Positions 499 through 62,324 of a DNA stretch of 64,000 nucleotides are shown piece after piece. Position numbers and translations under genes: made by a program. This DNA is from Candidatus Nomurabacteria bacterium (GTDB taxonomy: Bacteria > Patescibacteriota > Minisyncoccia > Phycocordibacterales > UBA9973), in contig JAHFNH010000002.1 in the NCBI GenBank assembly GCA_023267435.1, positions 88,706 to 152,705 of the forward strand, given 5' to 3'. How positions within the stretch are numbered: position 1 is the stretch's first letter; each line of letters starts with the position of its first letter. The notes below the pieces were generated by a model. The model saw nothing but the letters and a program-made list of their open reading frames with translations. It was not told the origin of the DNA and did no database searches.

Positions 499-557
499 TT
501 TATAGAGCTAAAATTGTTTAAGGACTACGTTTATTTACTTTAAAACTACCAAGAAAT

Positions 558-589
558 CATTTACAAGTCAATATATTTGTGATATTGTG
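558..589. promoter_or_regulatory. Bidirectional promoter module copy A: TTACAAGTCAA palindrome (divergent -35 hexamers) plus TGaTATTGT extended -10 toward gene 634..984
   Basis: Near-identical to module at 56318..56353 (catttaTTGACtcGTCAAtatttttgTGaTATTGT); -35/-10 spacing 16-17 nt on both strands. Confidence 0.6.
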
Positions 590-633
590 TATTTGAAAAA
601 ATAATTGTTTTTAAACATAAAAAGGAGGTAAAT

Positions 634-16688: not shown

Positions 16689-16720
16689 GATTTTTCTTTT
16701 TTGTAAATTAAAAAAATTAA

Positions 16721-16767
16721 GGCGTCGTGGGTCCCCTTTCCTATCTTTTCAGAGGGCGAAGGCGCAG
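16721..16767. repeat. E1 repeat element, intergenic copy between atpF and atpE
   Basis: ggcgtcgtgggtcccctttcctatcttttcagagggcgaaggcgcag; two further copies lie in-frame in the FAD oxidase gene (23470..23514, 23929..23973). Confidence 0.85.
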
Positions 16768-17116: not shown

Positions 17117-17153
17117 TTTCGCCTCTTCGGCGAATCAGCCGTTGAGGCTGAAA
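17117..17153. repeat. E2 repeat element (double hairpin), intergenic copy between atpE and atpB
   Basis: tttcgccTCTTCggcgaatcagccGTTGAggctgaaa; stems covary with copies at 18951..18986 and 57815..57852. Confidence 0.85.
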
Positions 17154-18950: not shown

Positions 18951-18986
18951 AATCGCCTCATCGGCGATCTGCCGTAGAGGCAGATC
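18951..18986. repeat. E2 repeat element, intergenic copy between the RRM gene and prfA
   Basis: aatcgccTCATCggcgatctgccGTAGAggcagatc. Confidence 0.85.
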
Positions 18987-22479: not shown

Positions 22480-24282
22480 CTATACCCCATGGTGTGGTTT
22501 TGGGTGTTCTATGGCTAAATGGCTTGCAACGTATTCTTTGGTGCCCATACCTCCCTGAGGCAGTGCGATCTTTTTACCAGGATTGAAAATATTTTTGGGA
22601 TCAAAGATATTCTTAACTTCACCAAATAAAGCATAAATTTTCTCGCCGTACATTTTTTCCAAATATGGCGTACGGATTATTCCATCATTATGTTCCGCGG
22701 TAATAGAACCTTCATAATCTAAAACTAAATCATAAACCTTTTCGGAAAGCTCAGTTATAATTTCAGCTGTATTGCTCCGACTAAAATCCATCAAGGGGAT
22801 AATATGAAAATTACCATCACCTGCGTGTCCGGCAATCGTATATTCTAAATTATAATTTTTCAAAATATTATTAAGTTCTGGAATAAATTTCGGTAAGAAT
22901 TCTGGACGAACAATAATGTCATCGATAAATGGCGCAGTACGTTTTCCAGAAACATGTTTGCGTAATAGATTAAAGCTCTCACGTCTAATGTCCCAATATT
23001 TCCCTGCTTCAGCTTCTGTTTTAGTAATGTGCACTTCTAGTTTAAAATCTTTTATTTTTTCTTTCAAACTTAAACACTGCTTATTTACTTCTGTATCATC
23101 GTCACTAGCAAATTCAGCTAATAAAATTAATTTCGGAAATCCGCCCGTAATCATCATTTTTAATTCCGGCAAGAAACTCCACATGAATTTTATCATTCCA
23201 AAAAATCCTTTAGTCTTTAAAAAATCTGGGAAAAATCGCACTGCAAGCTTCATAGTCTTATCGTCATAAGTTTCCAATGTCTCAAGGTTCGTTTCTAAAA
23301 TAGAATCTACAAGTTTACCCAATGGCGCTAAATCATTCATGAAAATAACCACAAGTTTCGAATGTTTTGGATTTTTAACAAGTTTGAAAGTTATTTCTGT
23401 GGCTATGCCTAAAGTTCCTTGTGAACCTACGAGTAATTTATTCAGATTAAAGACCGGCAAAGAATTTTTAGCGTCGTGGGTTCCCTGTCCTATGTCTCCG
23501 AGGGCGAAGGCGCCTAAATTCTTTGCTGGTTGGTTCTCTATAACATTCCAAAGATAATATCCAGCAGAATTCTTATGAACTTTTGGTTTTGCATTATTTA
23601 TTTCTTCTTGATTATTTTTTATTAAATCATAAAGTTTTTTATAATTTTCTTCTTTCTGTGAAATTTCACTTAAAGGAAAAGATTTCACAACTCTTTCCAC
23701 TCCATCTGAGAAAACAACTTTCGCTTCCATAACATAATCTTCCGTCTTGCCATATTTCAAAGTTCTTTCACCAGCAGAATTATTACCATACATTCCACCC
23801 ATCGCATTGAGACTTTTTGACGCTGTATAACAAGGTAAAATTAAACCTTCGGCTAAAGTTATCTTTTCAAAATCTCGGTAAAACGTTCCAGGCTGAACGG
23901 TAATAGTACTCTCCAGTAAAGGATTTTTAGAGTCGTGGGTTCCCTGTCCTTTGTCTCCGAGGGCGAAGGCTCCAAAATCCTTTACTGGAGAGAAGGACAC
24001 CAACTTATTCATATATTTAGTGAAATCTAAAATAATAGATTCATTTATCGCCCCACCAGACATATCTGTACCAGCGCAACGAGCTGTAATTGAGAGTTCT
24101 GGATACTTGGTTTTATTTTCATTTACCCATTTCACTAAATTCTGTACATCTTCTGAATCTTTTGGAAAAACAACTAACTTTGGTCTAACTTCAAAAATAC
24201 TCGCATCATGCGAATATTTTTTGAGAGTTTCTTCACTATCATCCACATCTCCCCTGAAAAATTTTTTAATTTCTTCTTTCAC
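22480..24282 (-). CDS. FAD-linked oxidase (GlcD / D-lactate dehydrogenase family) carrying two in-frame E1-element insertions
   Basis: FAD-binding PCMH-type region (RCAGTDMSGGA), C-terminal HAGDGNFH motif. Two 15-aa insertions GAFALGD(I/K)GQGTHD(A/S) are encoded by the E1 repeat. Confidence 0.8.
   Translation of the reverse strand: MKEEIKKFFRGDVDDSEETLKKYSHDASIFEVRPKLVVFPKDSEDVQNLVKWVNENKTKYPELSITARCAGTDMSGGAINESIILDFTKYMNKLVSFSPVKDFGAFALGDKGQGTHDSKNPLLESTITVQPGTFYRDFEKITLAEGLILPCYTASKSLNAMGGMYGNNSAGERTLKYGKTEDYVMEAKVVFSDGVERVVKSFPLSEISQKEENYKKLYDLIKNNQEEINNAKPKVHKNSAGYYLWNVIENQPAKNLGAFALGDIGQGTHDAKNSLPVFNLNKLLVGSQGTLGIATEITFKLVKNPKHSKLVVIFMNDLAPLGKLVDSILETNLETLETYDDKTMKLAVRFFPDFLKTKGFFGMIKFMWSFLPELKMMITGGFPKLILLAEFASDDDTEVNKQCLSLKEKIKDFKLEVHITKTEAEAGKYWDIRRESFNLLRKHVSGKRTAPFIDDIIVRPEFLPKFIPELNNILKNYNLEYTIAGHAGDGNFHIIPLMDFSRSNTAEIITELSEKVYDLVLDYEGSITAEHNDGIIRTPYLEKMYGEKIYALFGEVKNIFDPKNIFNPGKKIALPQGGMGTKEYVASHLAIEHPKPHHGV
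23470..23514. repeat. E1 repeat element, in-frame copy inside the FAD oxidase
   Basis: agcgtcgtgggttccctgtcctatgtctccgagggcgaaggcgcc. Confidence 0.85.
23929..23973. repeat. E1 repeat element, second in-frame copy inside the FAD oxidase
   Basis: agagtcgtgggttccctgtcctttgtctccgagggcgaaggctcc. Confidence 0.85.
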
Positions 24283-37562: not shown

Positions 37563-39107
37563 CTAATTTGTTACAACTAATTGATTGGGAGAAGAAACCG
37601 CCAGGTCAAAATCTATCATATATAATCGTGGTACGCGTTTAAAATCAACATTCTCTTTTTCATCCCTAAAGAAACGAAGACAAAAATTGCGTTCATGAGA
37701 ATGGCCGTGTTTTATTTTTAACTTATTTAAAACTTTGATTATTTTATCTTTTTGTTCTCGCAATTCATCCACAAAAATTTCAGTTTTATCCGCCCAATCC
37801 GATAAATTTAAATCTAAAACACCACTATAGACATCGACCAAACCTTCCTTATTTAATTTATAAGATTGTATTGGTTCTATAGGCACATAATCAAAACTAG
37901 CTTCTTTCCATTCAGCGTAATCTTCATAAAGCTTCTGCCAAGTCATAAATGCTTCCGGTTTTATATGTCGTATTATTGTTTTATCTTTTAATTCACCACC
38001 AATCAATGTGAGACCAGAACCAGTTTTTTCAAATTCTTGTCTTGAGAAAGTTTTTTCATCAATTTTTTTATTGTCATATAAGGGTGATTTGATTAGTTCT
38101 TCACCTAACCCTTTTTCTATCAGCAAATTTATTAATTCTTTTTTATTTTCTTCCGGTACTGCCCAAAGCATTTTTACATATGCTTTTTGTATATCGACAT
38201 TGTGATTTTCAATACCCCTTTTTACTTTTTCTAATATTTTTATTTTTAAATTAACCGCATCTTCGTCAGGCACTGATCTCAGTATACCTACAGCTGCGTT
38301 TTGTATTTCAATATTTGGATTTTCCAGACACAAATTAATCAAATAACCTCTTTCTTTATATAATGCATTTTCGATCATTCTCACAGAGATCTTTTGTATT
38401 TCAATACTTGGATTTTCTAATCCCAGTTTAATCAAAGATGTTCTTTCTTCTTCGGGTACCAATCCCATTATTGATGCAGCTGCTTTTTGTATTTCAAAAT
38501 TTTGATTTTCAAGGCATTGTTTAACAAAAACAGATCTGCCTTTATATGGTAAATCTCCAATCATGCCTATATATGCCTTCTGTATTTCAACATTCGGATT
38601 TTCAAGACCCTCTTTTACTTTTTCTACAAGATCTTTTTTAAAAGAATCTTTTTCTTCATCTGACAACAACCAAAACATTCCGGTAGATATCTTTTGTATT
38701 TCAACATTTTTATTTTCAACCCCCAGCTTGATTAGAGATGCCTTATCTTCTTCTGGTGCAAATTCAATCATTTTTACGGAAGTCTTTTGTATATCAATAT
38801 TTGAGTTTTCAAGACCGAGCTTGATTAAAGATGTTCTTTCTTTTTCTGGTGCAGATGTAACCATTTCTGCAAATTCCCTTTGCACTTCAGTTATATGATT
38901 TAAATTTTGCTTCGGGGAAAATTTTTTTTCTTTTAAAGGCGGAGCATTTTCTATTTGTTCTCTAATGAGATTATCTTGATTTTTATCTTTTATATATCTT
39001 TTAAAACTATGTTCTGTTATTGAGTTTTGACCAGAAATCTCATACATTTTCAAGTATTCTGGCGTTATAGATTCTAGTTTTTTGATCTCTAAATTTGATT
39101 TTTCCAT
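37563..39107 (-). CDS. HEAT-like repeat protein with C-terminal atypical protein-kinase-like domain
   Basis: Seven or more ~33-aa repeats (…SLIKLGLENPNxEIQKxSVxMI…); the C-terminal 180 aa carry HGHSHERNF and YMIDFDLAV, reminiscent of RIO/APH catalytic and DFG-like loops. Confidence 0.55.
   Translation of the reverse strand: MEKSNLEIKKLESITPEYLKMYEISGQNSITEHSFKRYIKDKNQDNLIREQIENAPPLKEKKFSPKQNLNHITEVQREFAEMVTSAPEKERTSLIKLGLENSNIDIQKTSVKMIEFAPEEDKASLIKLGVENKNVEIQKISTGMFWLLSDEEKDSFKKDLVEKVKEGLENPNVEIQKAYIGMIGDLPYKGRSVFVKQCLENQNFEIQKAAASIMGLVPEEERTSLIKLGLENPSIEIQKISVRMIENALYKERGYLINLCLENPNIEIQNAAVGILRSVPDEDAVNLKIKILEKVKRGIENHNVDIQKAYVKMLWAVPEENKKELINLLIEKGLGEELIKSPLYDNKKIDEKTFSRQEFEKTGSGLTLIGGELKDKTIIRHIKPEAFMTWQKLYEDYAEWKEASFDYVPIEPIQSYKLNKEGLVDVYSGVLDLNLSDWADKTEIFVDELREQKDKIIKVLNKLKIKHGHSHERNFCLRFFRDEKENVDFKRVPRLYMIDFDLAVSSPNQLVVTN
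38190..38870. repeat. Tandem ~99-nt coding repeats inside the HEAT-repeat gene
   Basis: Recurring …tcttttgtat(a/t)tcaa(t/c)a…ttttcaa…gat(g/c)… units are visible at the nucleotide level. Confidence 0.7.
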
Positions 39108-46857: not shown

Positions 46858-48318
46858 CTATTCTTTTTTAGGTCTCATTAGAGGGAAAATTTGAGTTTCG
46901 CGAATAGGTTTGTCAGCTAGGAACGCGAACAACATTTCACCAAAACCGAAACCACACGTCGGAGGCATACCATGTTCGAGCATTTCTACGAATTCCATAT
47001 CTGGCATCATTGCTTCTTTGTCCCCCGCTTTCAATAATTCTTGTTGAGCTTCGAATCTTTCAGATTGGTCGATGGGATCATTTAATTCGGAGAATCCATT
47101 GCCAACTTCTGATCCAGCGATGATTATTTGAAATCTTTCTGTTAGATCTTTATTATCCAGCATTGATTTTGATAATGGAGAAACAAGTTTTGGATGACCA
47201 GTTAAAAATACCGGACCGGAGATTTGCTTTCGGCAATATTTCCAAAGTGTATCCACCATGCGTTCCATCGTATTGCCATCATAAACAACATGAAGCTCAT
47301 CGAGCTTTTTCTTTACTTCATCATAAGTAGCATCTAATACATCGATACCTGTTTGAGCTTTCACTGTTTCTCGGTAATCTATTTTTTTCCATTCACCACT
47401 CAAATCAAATTTATGTCCGCGTGTTTCGAATTCAGTTTTTCCAAATACATCATTCGCTATTTTTTTATATAATTCTTCGGTGAGTTTCATTCCGTCTTTA
47501 TAATTCGCATAAGCCCAGTAAAATTCCAAATTAGTAAATTCTTGCAAATGATTAGCATCCGAACCTTCATTGCGATAAGCGCGTCCTATTTCAAAAGTCT
47601 TTGGAAAACCTGCCGCCATCAAACGCTTCTGCCAAAGCTCTCCGATAGAGATACGCATATATAAAGGCAGTTTAAAATCTTCATTGTATGTTTTAAAAGG
47701 TGTCGCTTCGGCACCGCCAGTCGTAACTTCCAGCGATGGAGTTTCGACTTCCATAAAACCATGATCTTTCATAAAATTGCGGGCAGTGTCCCAAAATTTA
47801 GTTTTCTTTTCTAATATATCTCTCACTTCCGGATCCATTAAAATATCCAAATATCTTTTTCGAAAACGCTCTTCAATATCTTGCAACCCATGCCATTTTT
47901 CTGGTAATGGCTGTAATGTTTTTGTGAGCATGCGCCAATCTTTCACTTCAACTGTCTTCTCTCCTCTTTTAGTTGTAAAAAATATTCCTTGCACTTCTAC
48001 GAAGTCTCCTATGTCTGTGACTTCATTAAAGAAATCAAATTTATCATCACCGAGAGAATCTTTCTTAAGAAGAGCCTGAAATTGCGCAGTACCATCATTT
48101 AAAGTCAAAAAAATAATCGCACCTTGTCCACGCATCGACATAATTCTGCCGGCAACCCATTTCATCTCGCCAGACTTTTCTAAATCTGAAAAACTCTCAA
48201 TCGCTTCTGCTAAGGAAAGTTCTCTTTTTGATTCTGCTGGATACGGATTAATACCTCTTTCTTTTAAGAGGTTGAGTTTTTTTATTCTAGCGTCTCTAAT
48301 CTCAGCAATTGTAGACAT
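46858..48318 (-). CDS. lysS: Lysyl-tRNA synthetase (class II)
   Basis: Anticodon-binding OB fold and class II motifs 1-3. Confidence 0.93.
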   Translation of the reverse strand: MSTIAEIRDARIKKLNLLKERGINPYPAESKRELSLAEAIESFSDLEKSGEMKWVAGRIMSMRGQGAIIFLTLNDGTAQFQALLKKDSLGDDKFDFFNEVTDIGDFVEVQGIFFTTKRGEKTVEVKDWRMLTKTLQPLPEKWHGLQDIEERFRKRYLDILMDPEVRDILEKKTKFWDTARNFMKDHGFMEVETPSLEVTTGGAEATPFKTYNEDFKLPLYMRISIGELWQKRLMAAGFPKTFEIGRAYRNEGSDANHLQEFTNLEFYWAYANYKDGMKLTEELYKKIANDVFGKTEFETRGHKFDLSGEWKKIDYRETVKAQTGIDVLDATYDEVKKKLDELHVVYDGNTMERMVDTLWKYCRKQISGPVFLTGHPKLVSPLSKSMLDNKDLTERFQIIIAGSEVGNGFSELNDPIDQSERFEAQQELLKAGDKEAMMPDMEFVEMLEHGMPPTCGFGFGEMLFAFLADKPIRETQIFPLMRPKKE

Positions 48319-48327
48319 TATTAATAA

Positions 48328-48795
48328 TTATGATACGTCGATGATTTTATAATTAACTGTGCCACCAGGAGTTTGGAATGAAACACTGTCTCCTTTCTTT
48401 TTTCCAAAAAGAGCTTCGCCGAACGGTGAATGATTTGAAATTTTACCGGCAGCCATATCTGCCTCCTCTGATCCCACAATAAAATAAGTTTTGTTTTCTT
48501 TTGTACCTTCTTTTTCCACCACGACAGTAGAACCGACTTGCGCCGTGTCACCTCCATGTTTTGAAACAACCATTGATGTCTGTAAAATATGTTCTATCTT
48601 TGCAATACGTTCTTCTAATTTACCTTGATCTTCTCTGGCTTGGTGATACTCTGCATTTTCTGAAAGGTCTCCGAGAGATTTGGCGTACTCCAAGGCATCG
48701 ATTATTTCTTTGCGCTTTGGGCCTTTTAAATCTTCAAGCTCAGCTTGAAGCAATTTTTTCTTCTCTTCGGTTATATAATCTGCTGTCTTATCCAT
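48328..48795 (-). CDS. greA: Transcription elongation factor GreA
   Basis: Conserved coiled-coil with acidic tip and C-terminal FKBP-like domain. Confidence 0.9.
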   Translation of the reverse strand: MDKTADYITEEKKKLLQAELEDLKGPKRKEIIDALEYAKSLGDLSENAEYHQAREDQGKLEERIAKIEHILQTSMVVSKHGGDTAQVGSTVVVEKEGTKENKTYFIVGSEEADMAAGKISNHSPFGEALFGKKKGDSVSFQTPGGTVNYKIIDVS

Positions 48796-48917
48796 TAGTT
48801 AAATCTAACTTTTTTCCATTAAAAAGTCAAAAAATGCTTTCAAATTATAAAGATGACGATATTTACACCACGACAAAACTTGCGATAAATTTTTTATATG
48901 ATATTCTATTGGAATAT

Positions 48918-49148
48918 ATGGCAAAAACAATAATAGAAGTTAAGAAAAATCCAAATGAAAATAACGCGAGCATAATGCGCCGTTTTTCTCGTAAGGTTCA
49001 GGAATCAGGCGTAATCCACAAAGTGAAAGGTTCTCGATATAACGAAAGAAAGGAATCAAAGCTTAAGGTTAAAGCTGGAGCTCTAAAGAGACTAGGTAGA
49101 AGAAAAGAAATCGACAAGCTTCGCAAACTAGGCAAATTGGTAAAGTAA
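48918..49148 (+). CDS. rpsU: 30S ribosomal protein S21 (start uncertain; ATG at 48834 would add 28 aa)
   Basis: …IMRRFSRKVQESGVIHKVKGSRYNERKESKLKVKAGALKRLGRRKE… is S21-like. The N-terminal part of ORF 48561..49148 overlaps greA and is rejected. Confidence 0.65.
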   Translation: MAKTIIEVKKNPNENNASIMRRFSRKVQESGVIHKVKGSRYNERKESKLKVKAGALKRLGRRKEIDKLRKLGKLVK

Positions 49149-49151
49149 AAT

Positions 49152-49604
49152 ATGCAGGAAAATTTATCTATTATAAACAAAACAAAAGGCAAGCTTCCGA
49201 GCTTGCCTTTTAACGAGTTGAAAAATAACATCTTGGGCAAAAATTACTCTTGCTCGATTGTTTTCGTCGGAGAAAAAAGATCCAGAGAGTTCAATAAAAA
49301 ATATCGAGATAAAGATAAGTCTACGAATATTTTATCTTTTTGTTTATCAAAAACTGACGGCGAGATGATTCTATGTCCAGCCGTCGCAAAACGCGAATAT
49401 AAAAAATTCGACAGAACTTTTCCAAATTTCCTAGGATTTTTAGTTATCCACGGAATGCTTCATTTGAAAGGAATGGAACATAGTAGTAGAATGGAGAAAG
49501 CGGAACAAAAATATGATCAGAAATATTTCTATCGGGATAGACATAGGATCATCAACGACAAGAGTCGTGGTGGGAGAATTCTTAAAGGGAGAAAAAAATC
49601 CTAA
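49152..49604 (+). CDS. ybeY: rRNA maturation endoribonuclease YbeY
   Basis: HGMLHLKGMEH zinc-binding motif. Confidence 0.85.
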   Translation: MQENLSIINKTKGKLPSLPFNELKNNILGKNYSCSIVFVGEKRSREFNKKYRDKDKSTNILSFCLSKTDGEMILCPAVAKREYKKFDRTFPNFLGFLVIHGMLHLKGMEHSSRMEKAEQKYDQKYFYRDRHRIINDKSRGGRILKGRKKS

Positions 49605-56187: not shown

Positions 56188-56317
56188 TTTTTTAGTTTTT
56201 AGTTAGACATAAATTTAGTTAATTTTCTCAACCCTCATAAAGGAGCTGGGAAAATCAACCAAATAGCCTGCTAAAACAAATATTTCAAACAACTGAATCT
56301 TGTCATTATATTATCAA

Positions 56318-56353
56318 ACATTTATTGACTCGTCAATATTTTTGTGATATTGT
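56318..56353. promoter_or_regulatory. Bidirectional promoter module copy B: TTGACtcGTCAA palindrome; TGaTATTGT extended -10 (plus) and TAATAT -10 (minus)
   Basis: catttaTTGACtcGTCAAtatttttgTGaTATTGT; 17-nt spacers on both strands. Confidence 0.65.
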
Positions 56354-56399
56354 TTGGATAAATAAATTTGTTATTGTTAAACCTTAAAAACTAAATATC

Positions 56400-57579: not shown

Positions 57580-58677
57580 ATGACATATATGAAAATACTC
57601 GCAATCGAAACATCCTGCGACGAAACAGGAATAAGTATATTGGAAATAAAAGGAGGAATTAAAAATCCTTCTTTTAGAGTTTTGGCGGACAGCTTGAATT
57701 CTCAAATAAAAATACACGCTCCTTTCGGTGGAGTGTACCCCATGCTAGCCAAAAGAGAACATCAAAAAAATCTTCCGATTTTATTTGAAAGAACATTAAA
57801 AAAAGCGGGTAAAAAAATCGCCTCTTCGGCGATCCGCCGTAGAGGCGGAAAACTATTTGATTTAATAGCTGTCACTTCCGGCCCAGGCCTCGAACCTGCA
57901 CTTTGGACAGGAATAATGTTCGCGCAAGAACTAGCTAAAAAATGGAAAGTTCCCATTGTACCAGTTAATCATATGGAAGGTCATATTCTTTCTGTATTTG
58001 GAAAACAAAAAGGTGAATTCTCCATTCCAAAAATAAAATTCCCTATTCTTTCCTTGCTTGTTTCCGGCGGACATACGGAATTGGTGCTTTCAAAAGATTG
58101 GATGAAATACGAAGTCATCGGCGAGACACTGGATGATGCAGCTGGAGAGGCTTTTGATAAAGTTGCCAGAATGCTCGAACTTCCCTATCCTGGCGGACCG
58201 GAAATTTCAAAGCTGGCAGAACAAGGCAGGAAAACTTTTAAAAATCTTCCGGAAGAAATAAAATTACCTCGCCCGATGATGTACAGTAAAAATTTTGATT
58301 TTTCTTTTTCTGGATTAAAAACTGCCGTATTATACCTAACTCAGAAAATTGGAAAATTAAACGACAAAACTAAAAAGCAGATAGCAACAGAATTTGAAAA
58401 TGCCGTAGTTGAAACTTTAATTTACAAAACAAAAAAAGCTATAGAAAAATACAATATCAAAACAATCGTGGTGGCGGGCGGGGTATCTTCTAATAAACAT
58501 TTAAGAAAAGAAATAAAAAAAATGGTAGGGTTGAAACAAAAAATTCTATTTCCTGGCAAAAAACTTTCTACCGATAATTCTGTGATGATAGGCATAACAG
58601 GATATTTCAGATTTATAAAAAAAGGAAAAAAAATCGGCGCCTCAAAAATAAAAGCTGAAGGATATATGCACCTTTAA
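57580..58677 (+). CDS. tsaD: tRNA N6-adenosine threonylcarbamoyltransferase TsaD (Kae1/Gcp) carrying an in-frame E2-element insertion
   Basis: ILAIETSCDETGISI start and HMEGH metal motif. The 12-aa insert IASSAIRRRGGK sits just before the conserved IAVTSGPG and is encoded by the E2 repeat. Confidence 0.88.
   Translation: MTYMKILAIETSCDETGISILEIKGGIKNPSFRVLADSLNSQIKIHAPFGGVYPMLAKREHQKNLPILFERTLKKAGKKIASSAIRRRGGKLFDLIAVTSGPGLEPALWTGIMFAQELAKKWKVPIVPVNHMEGHILSVFGKQKGEFSIPKIKFPILSLLVSGGHTELVLSKDWMKYEVIGETLDDAAGEAFDKVARMLELPYPGGPEISKLAEQGRKTFKNLPEEIKLPRPMMYSKNFDFSFSGLKTAVLYLTQKIGKLNDKTKKQIATEFENAVVETLIYKTKKAIEKYNIKTIVVAGGVSSNKHLRKEIKKMVGLKQKILFPGKKLSTDNSVMIGITGYFRFIKKGKKIGASKIKAEGYMHL
57815..57852. 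repeat. E2 repeat element, in-frame copy inside tsaD
   Basis: aaatcgccTCTTCggcgatccgccGTAGAggcggaaaa. Confidence 0.85.
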
Positions 58678-62056: not shown

Positions 62057-62283
62057 TAAAAACCCCACCAACTATGTTGATGGGGTTGCCTCTGCGATAG
62101 AGCACAGGTCTAAGCCGATTTAGCCATAAAATCACAAACAGGACAAAATCGGGTCTTTGATCGCGTTCAATGTTTCCCTTGAGAGCGAGAACGCCATTAG
62201 CAATAAGGGGTAACTGTCCAAGTCGTAGAGTTCACTCACGACTATGCTGATCCGTTACATCGATTTACCAGCCCCCATAGATT
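62057..62283 (-). ncRNA. Candidate ~220-nt small RNA: minus-strand promoter from module C (TTGACA-17-TAATCT), ORF-free and GC-elevated, ending at the hairpin + U-run at 62063..62085
   Basis: Promoter and terminator are both oriented for the minus strand; no ORF longer than 21 codons. Confidence 0.4.
62063..62085. terminator. Hairpin (ccccaccaactatgttgatgggg); a U-run follows only on the minus strand
   Basis: 10-bp stem with one mismatch. Confidence 0.65.
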
Positions 62284-62295
62284 AGCATAATTAAC

Positions 62296-62324
62296 TTGAC
62301 TTGTCAATATTTTTATGCTAGTAT
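62296..62324. promoter_or_regulatory. Bidirectional promoter module copy C: TTGACttGTCAA, TGcTAGTAT extended -10 toward gene 62425..62787
   Basis: Same architecture and spacer sequence as modules A and B. Confidence 0.6.

What the first reader, a model, noticed from the sequence alone, without database searches (positions are those of the whole stretch)
57815..57852. In-frame insertion of an E2 element into the essential tsaD gene, adding IASSAIRRRGGK
The 36-nt E2 copy sits in reading frame inside tsaD. It is translated as K-I-A-S-S-A-I-R-R-R-G-G-K, directly before the universally conserved IAVTxGPG segment of TsaD/Kae1. The same nucleotide element occurs intergenically elsewhere. The coding sequence therefore hosts a mobile-element-derived peptide, analogous to Rickettsia palindromic elements that insert in-frame into ORFs. 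The 12-codon length preserves the frame, implying selection against frameshifting insertions in an essential gene.
Basis: partly seen in the sequence, partly recalled or inferred. Interest (0 to 1): 0.75.

Follow-up and report, generated by a model that had tools for sequence, protein, structure and literature searches.

The report
Hairpin repeat element inside tsaD gene
A 36-base GC-rich double-hairpin repeat, found almost unchanged in many ultra-small (Patescibacteria) bacteria, sits in frame inside the essential tRNA-modification gene tsaD and adds 12 amino acids to a floppy surface loop, a miniature bacterial parallel to the Rickettsia elements that live inside genes.

Summary
tsaD (57580-58677, +) is intact. 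It carries the 36-nt unit AA-ATCGCC-TCTTC-GGCGAT-CCGCC-GTAGA-GGCGG-AA at 57815-57850, read as K-IASSAIRRRGG-K. The closest TsaD orthologs (75-77% identity) lack this peptide, and removing 12 residues restores the minimal loop length. AlphaFold puts the insert in the only low-confidence internal loop.

The same element occurs twice more in the window, both intergenic (18952-18983 and the variant 17118-17151). It also occurs, nearly identical, in about 35 further Patescibacteria contigs. At least 10 independent in-ORF insertions were found (TsaD, TrmD, RNase R, PurA, UvrC, MurD-like, Xer recombinases). All are sense-oriented: frame IASSAIRRRGG eight times, frame KSPHRRSAVEAE three times. Intergenic copies are split 5:5 by orientation.

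At orthologous sites the flanks have diverged to 51-81% identity while the element stays 97-100% identical, including every third codon position. Variants change the loops, keep the stems, and show compensatory pairs. So the hairpins are maintained at the nucleic-acid level.

It is best read as a new, very small REP/RPE-like palindromic element that targets A-rich (Lys-rich) loops. The mobilising enzyme and any host function are unknown.

The parts
57580..58677 (+). tsaD coding sequence (365 aa), the host gene. It is intact.
   Evidence: TIGR03723 350 bits; PDB TsaD/YgjD E 5e-73; AF2 mean pLDDT 90.3, Foldseek TM 0.88 to E. coli YgjD.
57815..57850 (+). E2 unit, 36 nt = 12 codons (AA + 32-nt core + AA). 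It is read in frame as (K)IASSAIRRRGG(K), residues 80-90 plus parts of K79 and K91.
   Evidence: Flank logo: A at -1 in 16/16 site groups, at -2 in 13/16, at +1 in 15/16, at +2 in 12/16. It differs from the family consensus by one synonymous loop base (TCA to TCT).
57817..57833 (+). Hairpin 1: ATCGCC / TCTTC / GGCGAT (6-bp stem, 5-nt loop).
   Evidence: The two-hairpin structure gives 98.1% of cells paired. The outermost pair covaries (A-U, G-C; T-A in the 17118 copy).
57834..57848 (+). Hairpin 2: CCGCC / GTAGA / GGCGG (5-bp stem, 5-nt loop).
   Evidence: The second stem pair is C-G here, T-A at 18970/18982 and A-T at 17137/17149. All three are compensatory.
18952..18983 (+). Intergenic E2 copy (29/32 identical), antisense to the flanking prfA and RRM-protein genes.
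17118..17151 (+). Diverged E2-family copy (TTCGCC-TCTTC-GGCGAA + TCAGCC-GTTGA-GGCTGA) in the atpB-atpE spacer, antisense to the atp genes.
   Evidence: nhmmer E 1e-4; context; atpB and atpE identified by Pfam.

Best explanation
E2 belongs to a family of very small (36-nt, 12-codon) GC-rich double-hairpin repeat elements. The family is dispersed in AT-rich genomes of a Paceibacteria/Nomurabacteria-like group of Patescibacteria.

Copies sit in A-rich tracts, with AA on both sides. In spacers inside operons either orientation occurs. Inside genes, A-tracts are Lys-rich surface loops, and only sense-oriented copies in one of the two stop-free frames are seen.

The tsaD copy is one such insertion. 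It lies between helix alpha1 and the IAVTSGPG strand and is simply translated, adding IASSAIRRRGG(K) to a disordered loop of an otherwise normal TsaD.

Shown:
- the repeat family exists;
- the insertion is absent from the nearest orthologs;
- the location is a loop;
- there is an orientation rule inside ORFs;
- the stems and synonymous sites are conserved.

Inferred:
- the element spreads by transposition or insertion through an unidentified trans-acting enzyme that recognises the hairpin stems;
- the A-tract is the target;
- the peptide is tolerated rather than useful.
For: Repeat family. The genome scan gave 13 hits and the metagenome scan 19, all in Patescibacteria contigs of 34-48% GC. All are the same sequence even though 12 stem positions were left free in the metagenome pattern. 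There is no match in viral contigs, phages, plasmids or Rfam.

In-ORF copies. They occur in TsaD (window, L001, L013), TrmD, RNase R, PurA, UvrC, MurD-like and Xer genes. Variants occur in RNase R, TrmD and a 251-aa ORF. All 11 in-ORF insertions are sense-oriented against 5:5 for intergenic sites. My own Fisher arithmetic on these counts gives p = 0.012.

Independent insertions at the same loop:
- two Xer genes carry E2 in the same loop in different frames;
- TsaD E2+ proteins fall in two clades whose nearest relatives lack it;
- TrmD E2+ proteins are scattered among E2- proteins of 92-94% identity.

Other TsaD and TrmD orthologs hold different palindromes at the same loops.

The insert maps to the gap after about T69 of E. 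coli TsaD and to the lowest-pLDDT internal segment: block 81-90 has a mean of 56, and residues 84-86 are below 50.

A-runs are 2-3.6 times commoner than T-runs on coding strands in the window.

Decayed remnants exist: L036 KPARRGGK and L037 KITRRGGG.
Against: - No transposase, RAYT or other mobilising gene was found in the DNA held.
- No clean filled/empty pair defines the boundaries or a target-site duplication. In TrmD the E2+ and E2- alleles differ by 6 codons, not 12.
- The strict copy number is only 1-3 per genome, and about 10 GTDB species representatives carry it. That is low for a proliferating element.
- Near-perfect conservation at orthologous sites fits a functional cis-element at least as well as a selfish one.
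- A-tract bias alone (67-78% sense expected) does not fully account for 11/11 sense.
- Translation of the insert is inferred from the open frame, not observed.
Confidence: 0.75

Rival explanations
1. E2 is mainly a host-maintained cis-acting nucleic-acid signal: a hairpin or palindromic site bound by a conserved Patescibacteria protein or RNase, for example for mRNA processing or stability, or a DNA-binding site. Its presence inside tsaD is incidental, and its spread by insertion is ancient rather than ongoing.
For: - Orthologous copies keep 97-100% identity while flanks are 51-81% identical.
- In TrmD all 11 third codon positions are identical in every pair, against 57-61% in the flanks.
- The L006/L011/L017 spacer copies share a site-specific TCCTC loop, which indicates vertical inheritance with conservation.
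- Variants change 1-4 bases in each 5-nt loop but none of the 22 stem bases, and two stem pairs covary.
- All copies lie inside or between co-directional genes, so they are transcribed.
- TrmD peptides are either intact (at most 1 substitution) or absent, with no continuum of decay.
Against: - Distribution is sporadic: about 10 GTDB species representatives, 1-3 copies each, in different genes in different genomes.
- Decayed remnants exist.
- Two Xer insertions in different frames and the patchy TrmD/TsaD pattern point to repeated gain.
- No binding factor, Rfam family or positional rule was found.
- The loci were found by searching for intact E2, which inflates apparent conservation.
Confidence: 0.3
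2. The peptide is an ancestral or independently evolved TsaD loop, not an insertion of a repeat.
For: The loop is hypervariable in length (0 to about 40 extra residues) across Patescibacteria TsaD.
Against: - The six nearest orthologs lack the peptide.
- A TsaD of only 67% identity in a 43%-GC genome carries the same 32 nt with 1 mismatch, while its flanks are about 59% identical.
- The same nucleotides occur intergenically and in unrelated genes.
Confidence: 0.02
3. The element is not translated. It is removed from the mRNA or bypassed by the ribosome, as with the mitochondrial 'byp' elements or T4 gene 60.
For: It is a stable GC-rich hairpin (-22 kcal/mol, z = -5) in an AT-rich message. The byp analogy rests on my own knowledge.
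Against: - In-ORF copies use only the two stop-free sense frames and have lengths that are multiples of 3 (36 nt; the extra module is 21 nt). That would be unnecessary if the element were skipped.
- There are no matching take-off and landing codons across copies.
- The loop tolerates many other inserts.
Confidence: 0.03
4. It is an assembly, chimera or contamination artefact.
For: All sources are metagenome assemblies.
Against: - The element is found in frame, with continuous host gene sequence on both sides.
- It appears in independent assemblies from several projects, judging by record and contig names (RIFCS/RIFOXY MAGs, 'Hain' contigs, 'Montesol' groundwater, TPA re-assemblies).
- Site-specific variants are present.
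Confidence: 0.01

Closest known systems
Rickettsia palindromic elements (RPEs; Ogata et al. 2000, as summarised in PMC10969869)
   Same: - Palindromic repeats that occur both between genes and inside unrelated housekeeping ORFs.
- They are inserted in frame and encode a family-specific peptide.
- They are compatible with protein fold and function.
- The host is a reduced, AT-rich genome.
   Different: - E2 is 36 nt, against about 100-150 bp for RPEs.
- It is a two-hairpin unit.
- It occurs in a different phylum.
- Only 1-3 strict copies are seen per genome.
- It is nearly identical across species whose orthologous genes are saturated at synonymous sites.
- Sequence relatedness to RPEs was not tested.
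Repetitive extragenic palindromes, including intragenic GTAG/CGTC-tagged REPs (Di Nocera et al. 2013, PMC3733652)
   Same: - GC-rich stem-loops of 20-40 bp, mostly between co-directional genes.
- Some lie inside ORFs, and their ends can supply stop codons. Here the TAA of the upstream gene overlaps the AA of E2 in L003/L028 and L006-type sites.
- They are proposed to act as RNA hairpins.
   Different: - There is no GTAG or CGTC tag at an end of the palindrome. GTAG lies in the loop of hairpin 2.
- Copy number is low.
- No RAYT was found.
- The in-ORF share is high (about half of sites), with a strict sense orientation.
GC-rich hairpin elements of AT-rich mitochondrial genomes (yeast GC clusters, Allomyces double-hairpin elements, Magnusiomyces byps). 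This comparison rests on my own knowledge and was not checked in the library.
   Same: Short GC-rich single or double hairpins that spread in AT-rich genomes and also land in coding sequence.
   Different: These are organellar elements. The byps are translationally bypassed, whereas E2's frame and length rules indicate ordinary translation.

Membership tests
TsaD/Kae1 (host gene) | Full-length match to the TsaD equivalog model above its cut-off, with the ASKHA fold | tested here: met
   TIGR03723 350 bits against 296; Foldseek TM 0.88 to E. coli YgjD.
Rickettsia palindromic elements | Repeat found both intergenically and in frame inside unrelated ORFs, encoding a conserved peptide | tested here: met
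Rickettsia palindromic elements | Length of about 100-150 bp and membership of one of the RPE sequence families, in Rickettsia | tested here: not met
   The unit is 36 nt and all hits are Patescibacteria.
Rickettsia palindromic elements | Insert lies on the protein surface, compatible with the fold | tested here: met
   The insert is the lowest-pLDDT internal loop in a model with mean pLDDT 90. It falls in an alignment gap against solved TsaD structures. Proximity to the TsaB/TsaE interfaces was not tested.
REP (repetitive extragenic palindrome) | Imperfect GC-rich palindrome of 20-40 nt forming a stem-loop | tested here: met
REP (repetitive extragenic palindrome) | GTAG (or CGTC) tetranucleotide at one end of the palindrome (PMC3733652) | tested here: not met
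   GTAG occurs only inside the loop of hairpin 2. No CGTC is present on either strand (sequence).
REP (repetitive extragenic palindrome) | High copy number per genome | tested here: not met
   1-3 strict copies per genome assembly. There are 3 family copies in this 64-kb window. Complete genomes were not available.
REP (repetitive extragenic palindrome) | Associated RAYT / IS200-type tyrosine transposase | tested here: inconclusive
Whole genomes were not searched.
MITE | Terminal inverted repeats plus a target-site duplication; about 50-500 bp | tested here: inconclusive
   The flanking AA...AA could be a 2-nt duplication or part of the element. No clean empty site was found. The size is below the usual range.
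Programmed-bypass elements (byp / gene 60 type) | Matching take-off and landing codons; any length or frame tolerated | tested here: not met
   The flanking codons differ among copies. Only stop-free frames and 3n lengths are seen.

The most novel reading that the evidence does not exclude
E2 is a portable, host-relevant nucleic-acid signal, not merely a selfish insert. It would be a sequence-specific double hairpin recognised by a conserved Patescibacteria factor (an RNA-processing or stability factor, or a DNA-hairpin-binding enzyme). It is kept under purifying selection even when it rides inside the coding sequence of essential genes. The codons of a protein loop would then be constrained by a non-coding function.
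Probability: 0.25. Interest if true: 0.8.

Novelty: new variant of a known kind. Interest (0 to 1): 0.6.

Why it matters
If this holds, Patescibacteria host families of 12-codon palindromic elements that colonise Lys-rich surface loops of essential enzymes. These are the most reduced and least mobile-element-rich bacteria known.

- It would explain part of the puzzling length variation of their conserved proteins. The TsaD and TrmD loops here hold a whole zoo of such inserts.
- It offers a natural map of insertion-tolerant sites.
- It extends the 'selfish DNA inside genes' phenomenon of Rickettsia to a far smaller unit and a different phylum.
- Frozen synonymous sites and covarying stems raise a testable question: is a nucleic-acid structure being selected within coding sequence?
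- No description of this element, its sequence or its peptide was found in the searchable literature.

Tried and rejected
1. **Census of proteins carrying the peptide.**
   - A synthetic 40-column motif probe worked locally but returned no candidates from the word index. One capped search was lost.
2. **Single long hairpin.** This is the MFE fold of one sequence. Comparative counts reject it as the conserved structure: 93.5% paired and 177/500 shuffles as good, against 98.1% and 1/500 for two hairpins.
3. **Antisense-terminator explanation for the sense-only rule.**
   - The scan tool does not call E2 a terminator on the minus strand.
   - An inverted copy in an A-rich coding tract would have only UUU after the hairpin.
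   - I kept this idea only as a minor possibility.
4. **Origin-proximal, parS- or Ter-like site.**
   - GC skew and gene strand flip near 48-49 kb.
   - There is no dnaA, no DnaA-box cluster and no parS.
   - All three window copies have the same absolute orientation.
   - Dropped.
5. **Replication-strand-specific insertion (IS200/IS605 style).** The window copies have opposite orientation relative to local skew, and intergenic copies are split 5:5. Not supported.
6. **Viral, phage or plasmid carrier.** Only chance partial matches were found.
7. **Exact boundaries from a filled/empty TrmD pair of 94% protein identity.** The A-rich loop has changed length independently, so the comparison is uninformative.
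8. **NJ tree of TrmD.** E2+ proteins are scattered, but resolution at 85-94% identity is too low to separate repeated gain from repeated loss.
9. **Host genes of the other E2 copies.** trmD, rnr, purA, uvrC, murD and xer are not in this window.

Full report
**1. The observation**

The ORF 57580-58677 (+) encodes a 365-aa protein.
- It matches the TsaD equivalog TIGR03723 at 350 bits (cut-off 296).
- It matches solved TsaD/YgjD structures at E about 5e-73.

Codons 79-91 (57814-57852) read AAA ATC GCC TCT TCG GCG ATC CGC CGT AGA GGC GGA AAA = K-IASSAIRRRGG-K, followed by LFDL-IAVTSGPG.

The 32-nt core ATCGCCTCTTCGGCGATCCGCCGTAGAGGCGG recurs at 18952-18983 with 3 mismatches, against 0 expected in shuffles. 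That copy lies between prfA and an RRM-protein gene, both on the minus strand. A profile search found a third, more diverged copy at 17118-17151 in the atpB-atpE spacer. No further copies are in the window.

**2. It is an insertion relative to orthologs**

Among the 120 best TsaD homologs, all Patescibacteria, the six closest (75-77% identity) lack the peptide.
- Several have the minimal loop (…AKIKK-ADLIAV…).
- Deleting 12 residues from the window protein gives exactly that loop length.
- HMMER places the extra residues in a gap after about T69 of E. coli TsaD, between helix alpha1 and the strand that carries the GPG motif.
- An AlphaFold2 model built on 70 homologs is confident overall (mean pLDDT 90.3, pTM 0.88). 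Its only weak internal segment is the insert: block 81-90 has mean 56 and residues 84-86 are below 50.
- The model superposes on E. coli YgjD with TM 0.88.

I did not test whether the loop faces TsaB, TsaE or the tRNA.

**3. The element is a widespread, nearly invariant repeat**

- A TsaD of only 67% identity (P0064, contig L001, 43% GC) carries the same peptide at the same loop. Its DNA matches the core at 31/32 while the flanks are about 59% identical.
- A scan of one genome per GTDB species with a 21-base pattern gave 13 hits, all in Patescibacteria MAGs (labelled Nomurabacteria, Paceibacterota, 'Saccharibacteria'), with 1-3 per assembly.
- A metagenome scan left 12 stem positions free and gave 19 hits. 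Every one is the same element with the same stems.
- The same loose pattern in viral contigs gave only two unrelated chance matches.
- Phage and plasmid collections gave only partial chance hits.
- Rfam has no family for it.
- The literature library contains neither the sequence nor the peptide, and no paper links Patescibacteria with palindromic repeats.

Across independent sites the bases next to the core are A at -1 (16/16), -2 (13/16), +1 (15/16) and +2 (12/16). The conserved unit is therefore AA+32+AA = 36 nt, exactly 12 codons.

**4. Where the copies sit**

About half of the sites are inside long ORFs identified by Pfam:
- TsaD;
- TrmD (five lineages);
- RNase R;
- adenylosuccinate synthetase;
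- UvrC;
- a MurD-like ligase;
- two Xer-type recombinases.

Profile hits add variants in RNase R (same site, a three-hairpin version; plus a second site), in TrmD (same site) and in a 251-aa ORF.

All 11 in-ORF insertions are in the sense orientation. Eight use the frame IASSAIRRRGG and three use the frame KSPHRRSAVEAE. The third sense frame has a stop. Two of the three antisense frames are open but are never used.

Intergenic sites are split 5 sense to 5 antisense relative to the flanking, co-directional genes. The contrast gives Fisher p = 0.012 (my arithmetic from those counts).

The PurA and UvrC copies lie near the N-terminus, so their translation depends on the start codon called.

**5. 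Structure**

A single sequence folds best as one long hairpin, but the comparative data favour two adjacent hairpins: ATCGCC-N5-GGCGAT and CCGCC-N5-GGCGG.
- On 14 distinct family members the two-hairpin structure has 98.1% of cells paired. Two pairs have double changes (A-U/G-C; C-G/U-A/A-U). Its covariation score was reached by 1 of 500 shuffles.
- The long hairpin has 93.5% paired and is no better than shuffles (177/500).
- Variants change 1-4 bases in each 5-nt loop and none of the 22 stem bases.

The sample is small, and several rows differ by single bases only.

**6. Conservation far above the flanks**

| Site | Flank identity | E2 identity |
|---|---|---|
| TrmD, five lineages (third codon positions) | 57-61% | 100% in every pair (11 positions) |
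| Spacer site in L006/L011/L017 | 68-79% | 30-32/32, all with a site-specific TCCTC loop |
| L003/L028 | 69% and 51% | 32/32 |
| TsaD L001/L013 | 68% | 31/32 |

The shared TCCTC loop at the L006-type site argues for vertical inheritance there. Identity drops right at the AA…AA edges.

One caveat is that the loci were retrieved by searching for intact E2. However, the TrmD protein search does not depend on the nucleotide pattern. It shows the peptide either intact (at most one substitution; 8 of 120) or absent, with no graded decay.

Remnants do exist in TsaD: L036 KPARRGGK and L037 KITRRGGG.

**7. Signs of repeated gain**

- The two Xer genes carry E2 in the same loop but in different frames.
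- E2+ TsaD proteins lie in two clades (…TSGPGLEPAL and …TYGPGLEM…) whose neighbours lack it.
- E2+ TrmD proteins are each closest to E2- proteins (92-94% identity outside the loop).
- A three-hairpin subfamily occurs in two unrelated genes in two frames.
- The same TsaD and TrmD loops hold many other, unrelated GC-rich palindromes in other lineages. Examples are AAGGTCGGACCTT…AAGGTCTGACCTT in L039 and a different hairpin in L038, the closest relative with a long contig.
- The 'empty' loops are Lys-rich A-tracts, for example KIKIKDKK.

A filled/empty TrmD pair of 94% protein identity differs by 6 codons, not 12. The exact boundaries and any target duplication therefore remain undefined.

**8. 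Mechanism, with confidence**

Most likely (0.75), E2 is a REP/RPE-like non-autonomous palindromic element whose 36-nt length makes it frame-neutral.
- It lands in A-tracts.
- On coding strands A-runs outnumber T-runs 2- to 3.6-fold in this window. They encode Lys-rich surface loops, whereas T-runs encode hydrophobic core segments.
- Targeting plus selection together can therefore give the sense-only rule. This step is inferred.
- The tsaD copy is translated into a disordered loop.

The conservation data suggest that the stems are recognised by something. Whether that is a mobilising enzyme or a host factor cannot be decided here.

The rival reading, a host-maintained cis-element, gets 0.3 and is not exclusive of the first. 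The remaining rivals are contradicted:
- ancestral loop, contradicted;
- bypass or splicing, contradicted;
- assembly artefact, contradicted.

**9. Comparison with known systems**

It works like Rickettsia palindromic elements: in-frame colonisation of housekeeping ORFs (PMC10969869). It also resembles intragenic REPs (PMC3733652). It is a member of neither.
- It is a quarter of the RPE size and occurs in another phylum.
- It lacks the terminal GTAG/CGTC tag.
- It lacks the high copy number of REPs.
- No RAYT was found (weak evidence).

I rate it a new variant of a known kind, with interest 0.6. The phenomenon is known in principle. The new features are its size, the cross-species invariance inside coding sequence, the strict orientation rule and the loop hot spots in Patescibacteria.

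Noticed in passing
window 23454-23529 and 23913-23988 (inside ORF 22480-24282, minus strand); window 16710-16766: A second repeat family. Two 76-nt copies (88% alike, with terminal inverted repeats CCGGCAAAGAATTTTTAG / CTAAATTCTTTGCTGG) lie inside a FAD-linked oxidase gene. They are translated as …LGAFALGD[IK]GQGTHD[AS]KN… twice. A third core copy (80% alike) is intergenic between atpE and the next atp gene. This looks like another in-ORF repeat element in the same genome.
   Followed up: partly
TsaD loop before IDLIAVTxGPG in P0002-P0120; loci L036 1881-3044, L038 10001-11101, L039 4001-5179: The same TsaD loop holds many different inserted peptides in other Patescibacteria (LTNSAIAEN…, QGRTLRIQKGLTF…, LTPSPSPDRRGLGRG, NFMRAESGGNPG…). 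The three examined at DNA level are distinct GC-rich palindromes. The loop is a general insertion hot spot.
   Followed up: partly
TrmD homologs P0121-P0240 (loop after KAF): The TrmD helix-to-strand loop is a second hot spot. Besides E2 it carries KGRASKDGARHDFAKS, SRPKSGSRQKV, PPGRGKKD, LARRNGGKN, RKFSSGPRV… and other inserts in different lineages. The empty state is the A-rich KIKIKDKK.
   Followed up: partly
L019 2-32 and L008 2827-2884; L022 6339-6397: E2 subfamilies. One is a three-hairpin version (an extra 21-nt module CAAGTCCGCCGAGGAGGCGGA) in RNase R and in a 251-aa ORF, in different frames. Another is a variant with a G-C outer pair at a second site in RNase R.
   Followed up: partly
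window about 48000-49200: GC skew changes sign and gene orientation flips (greA on minus; ybeY-ftsA-ftsZ on plus). There is no dnaA, no DnaA-box cluster and no parS match, so an origin is not established.
   Followed up: partly
window 38170-38875: Seven or so 93-nt (31-codon) tandem repeats at 60-80% identity, presumably a repeat-domain protein on the minus strand (families D1/D2).
   Followed up: no
window 542-602, 56307-56367, 62278-62320: A 43-56-nt repeat containing TTGAC.[CT]GTCAATAT[AT]TTTGTGATA, upstream of genes or tRNAs. It could be a shared promoter or operator (families D6/D12).
   Followed up: no
L013 (TsaD of JBAZYS010000001.1): This E2-bearing TsaD has a further insert of about 30 residues (KGKQSLGGVSQADGPRGSAPRTRGDSDPSKIG) at a different loop.
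   Followed up: no
L003/L028 and L006/L011/L017 loci: In sense-oriented spacer copies, the stop codon TAA of the upstream gene overlaps the 5' AA of E2. The GAGG of hairpin 2 lies 6-18 nt before the next start codon, so the element may double as a stop codon and a Shine-Dalgarno-like sequence.
   Followed up: no
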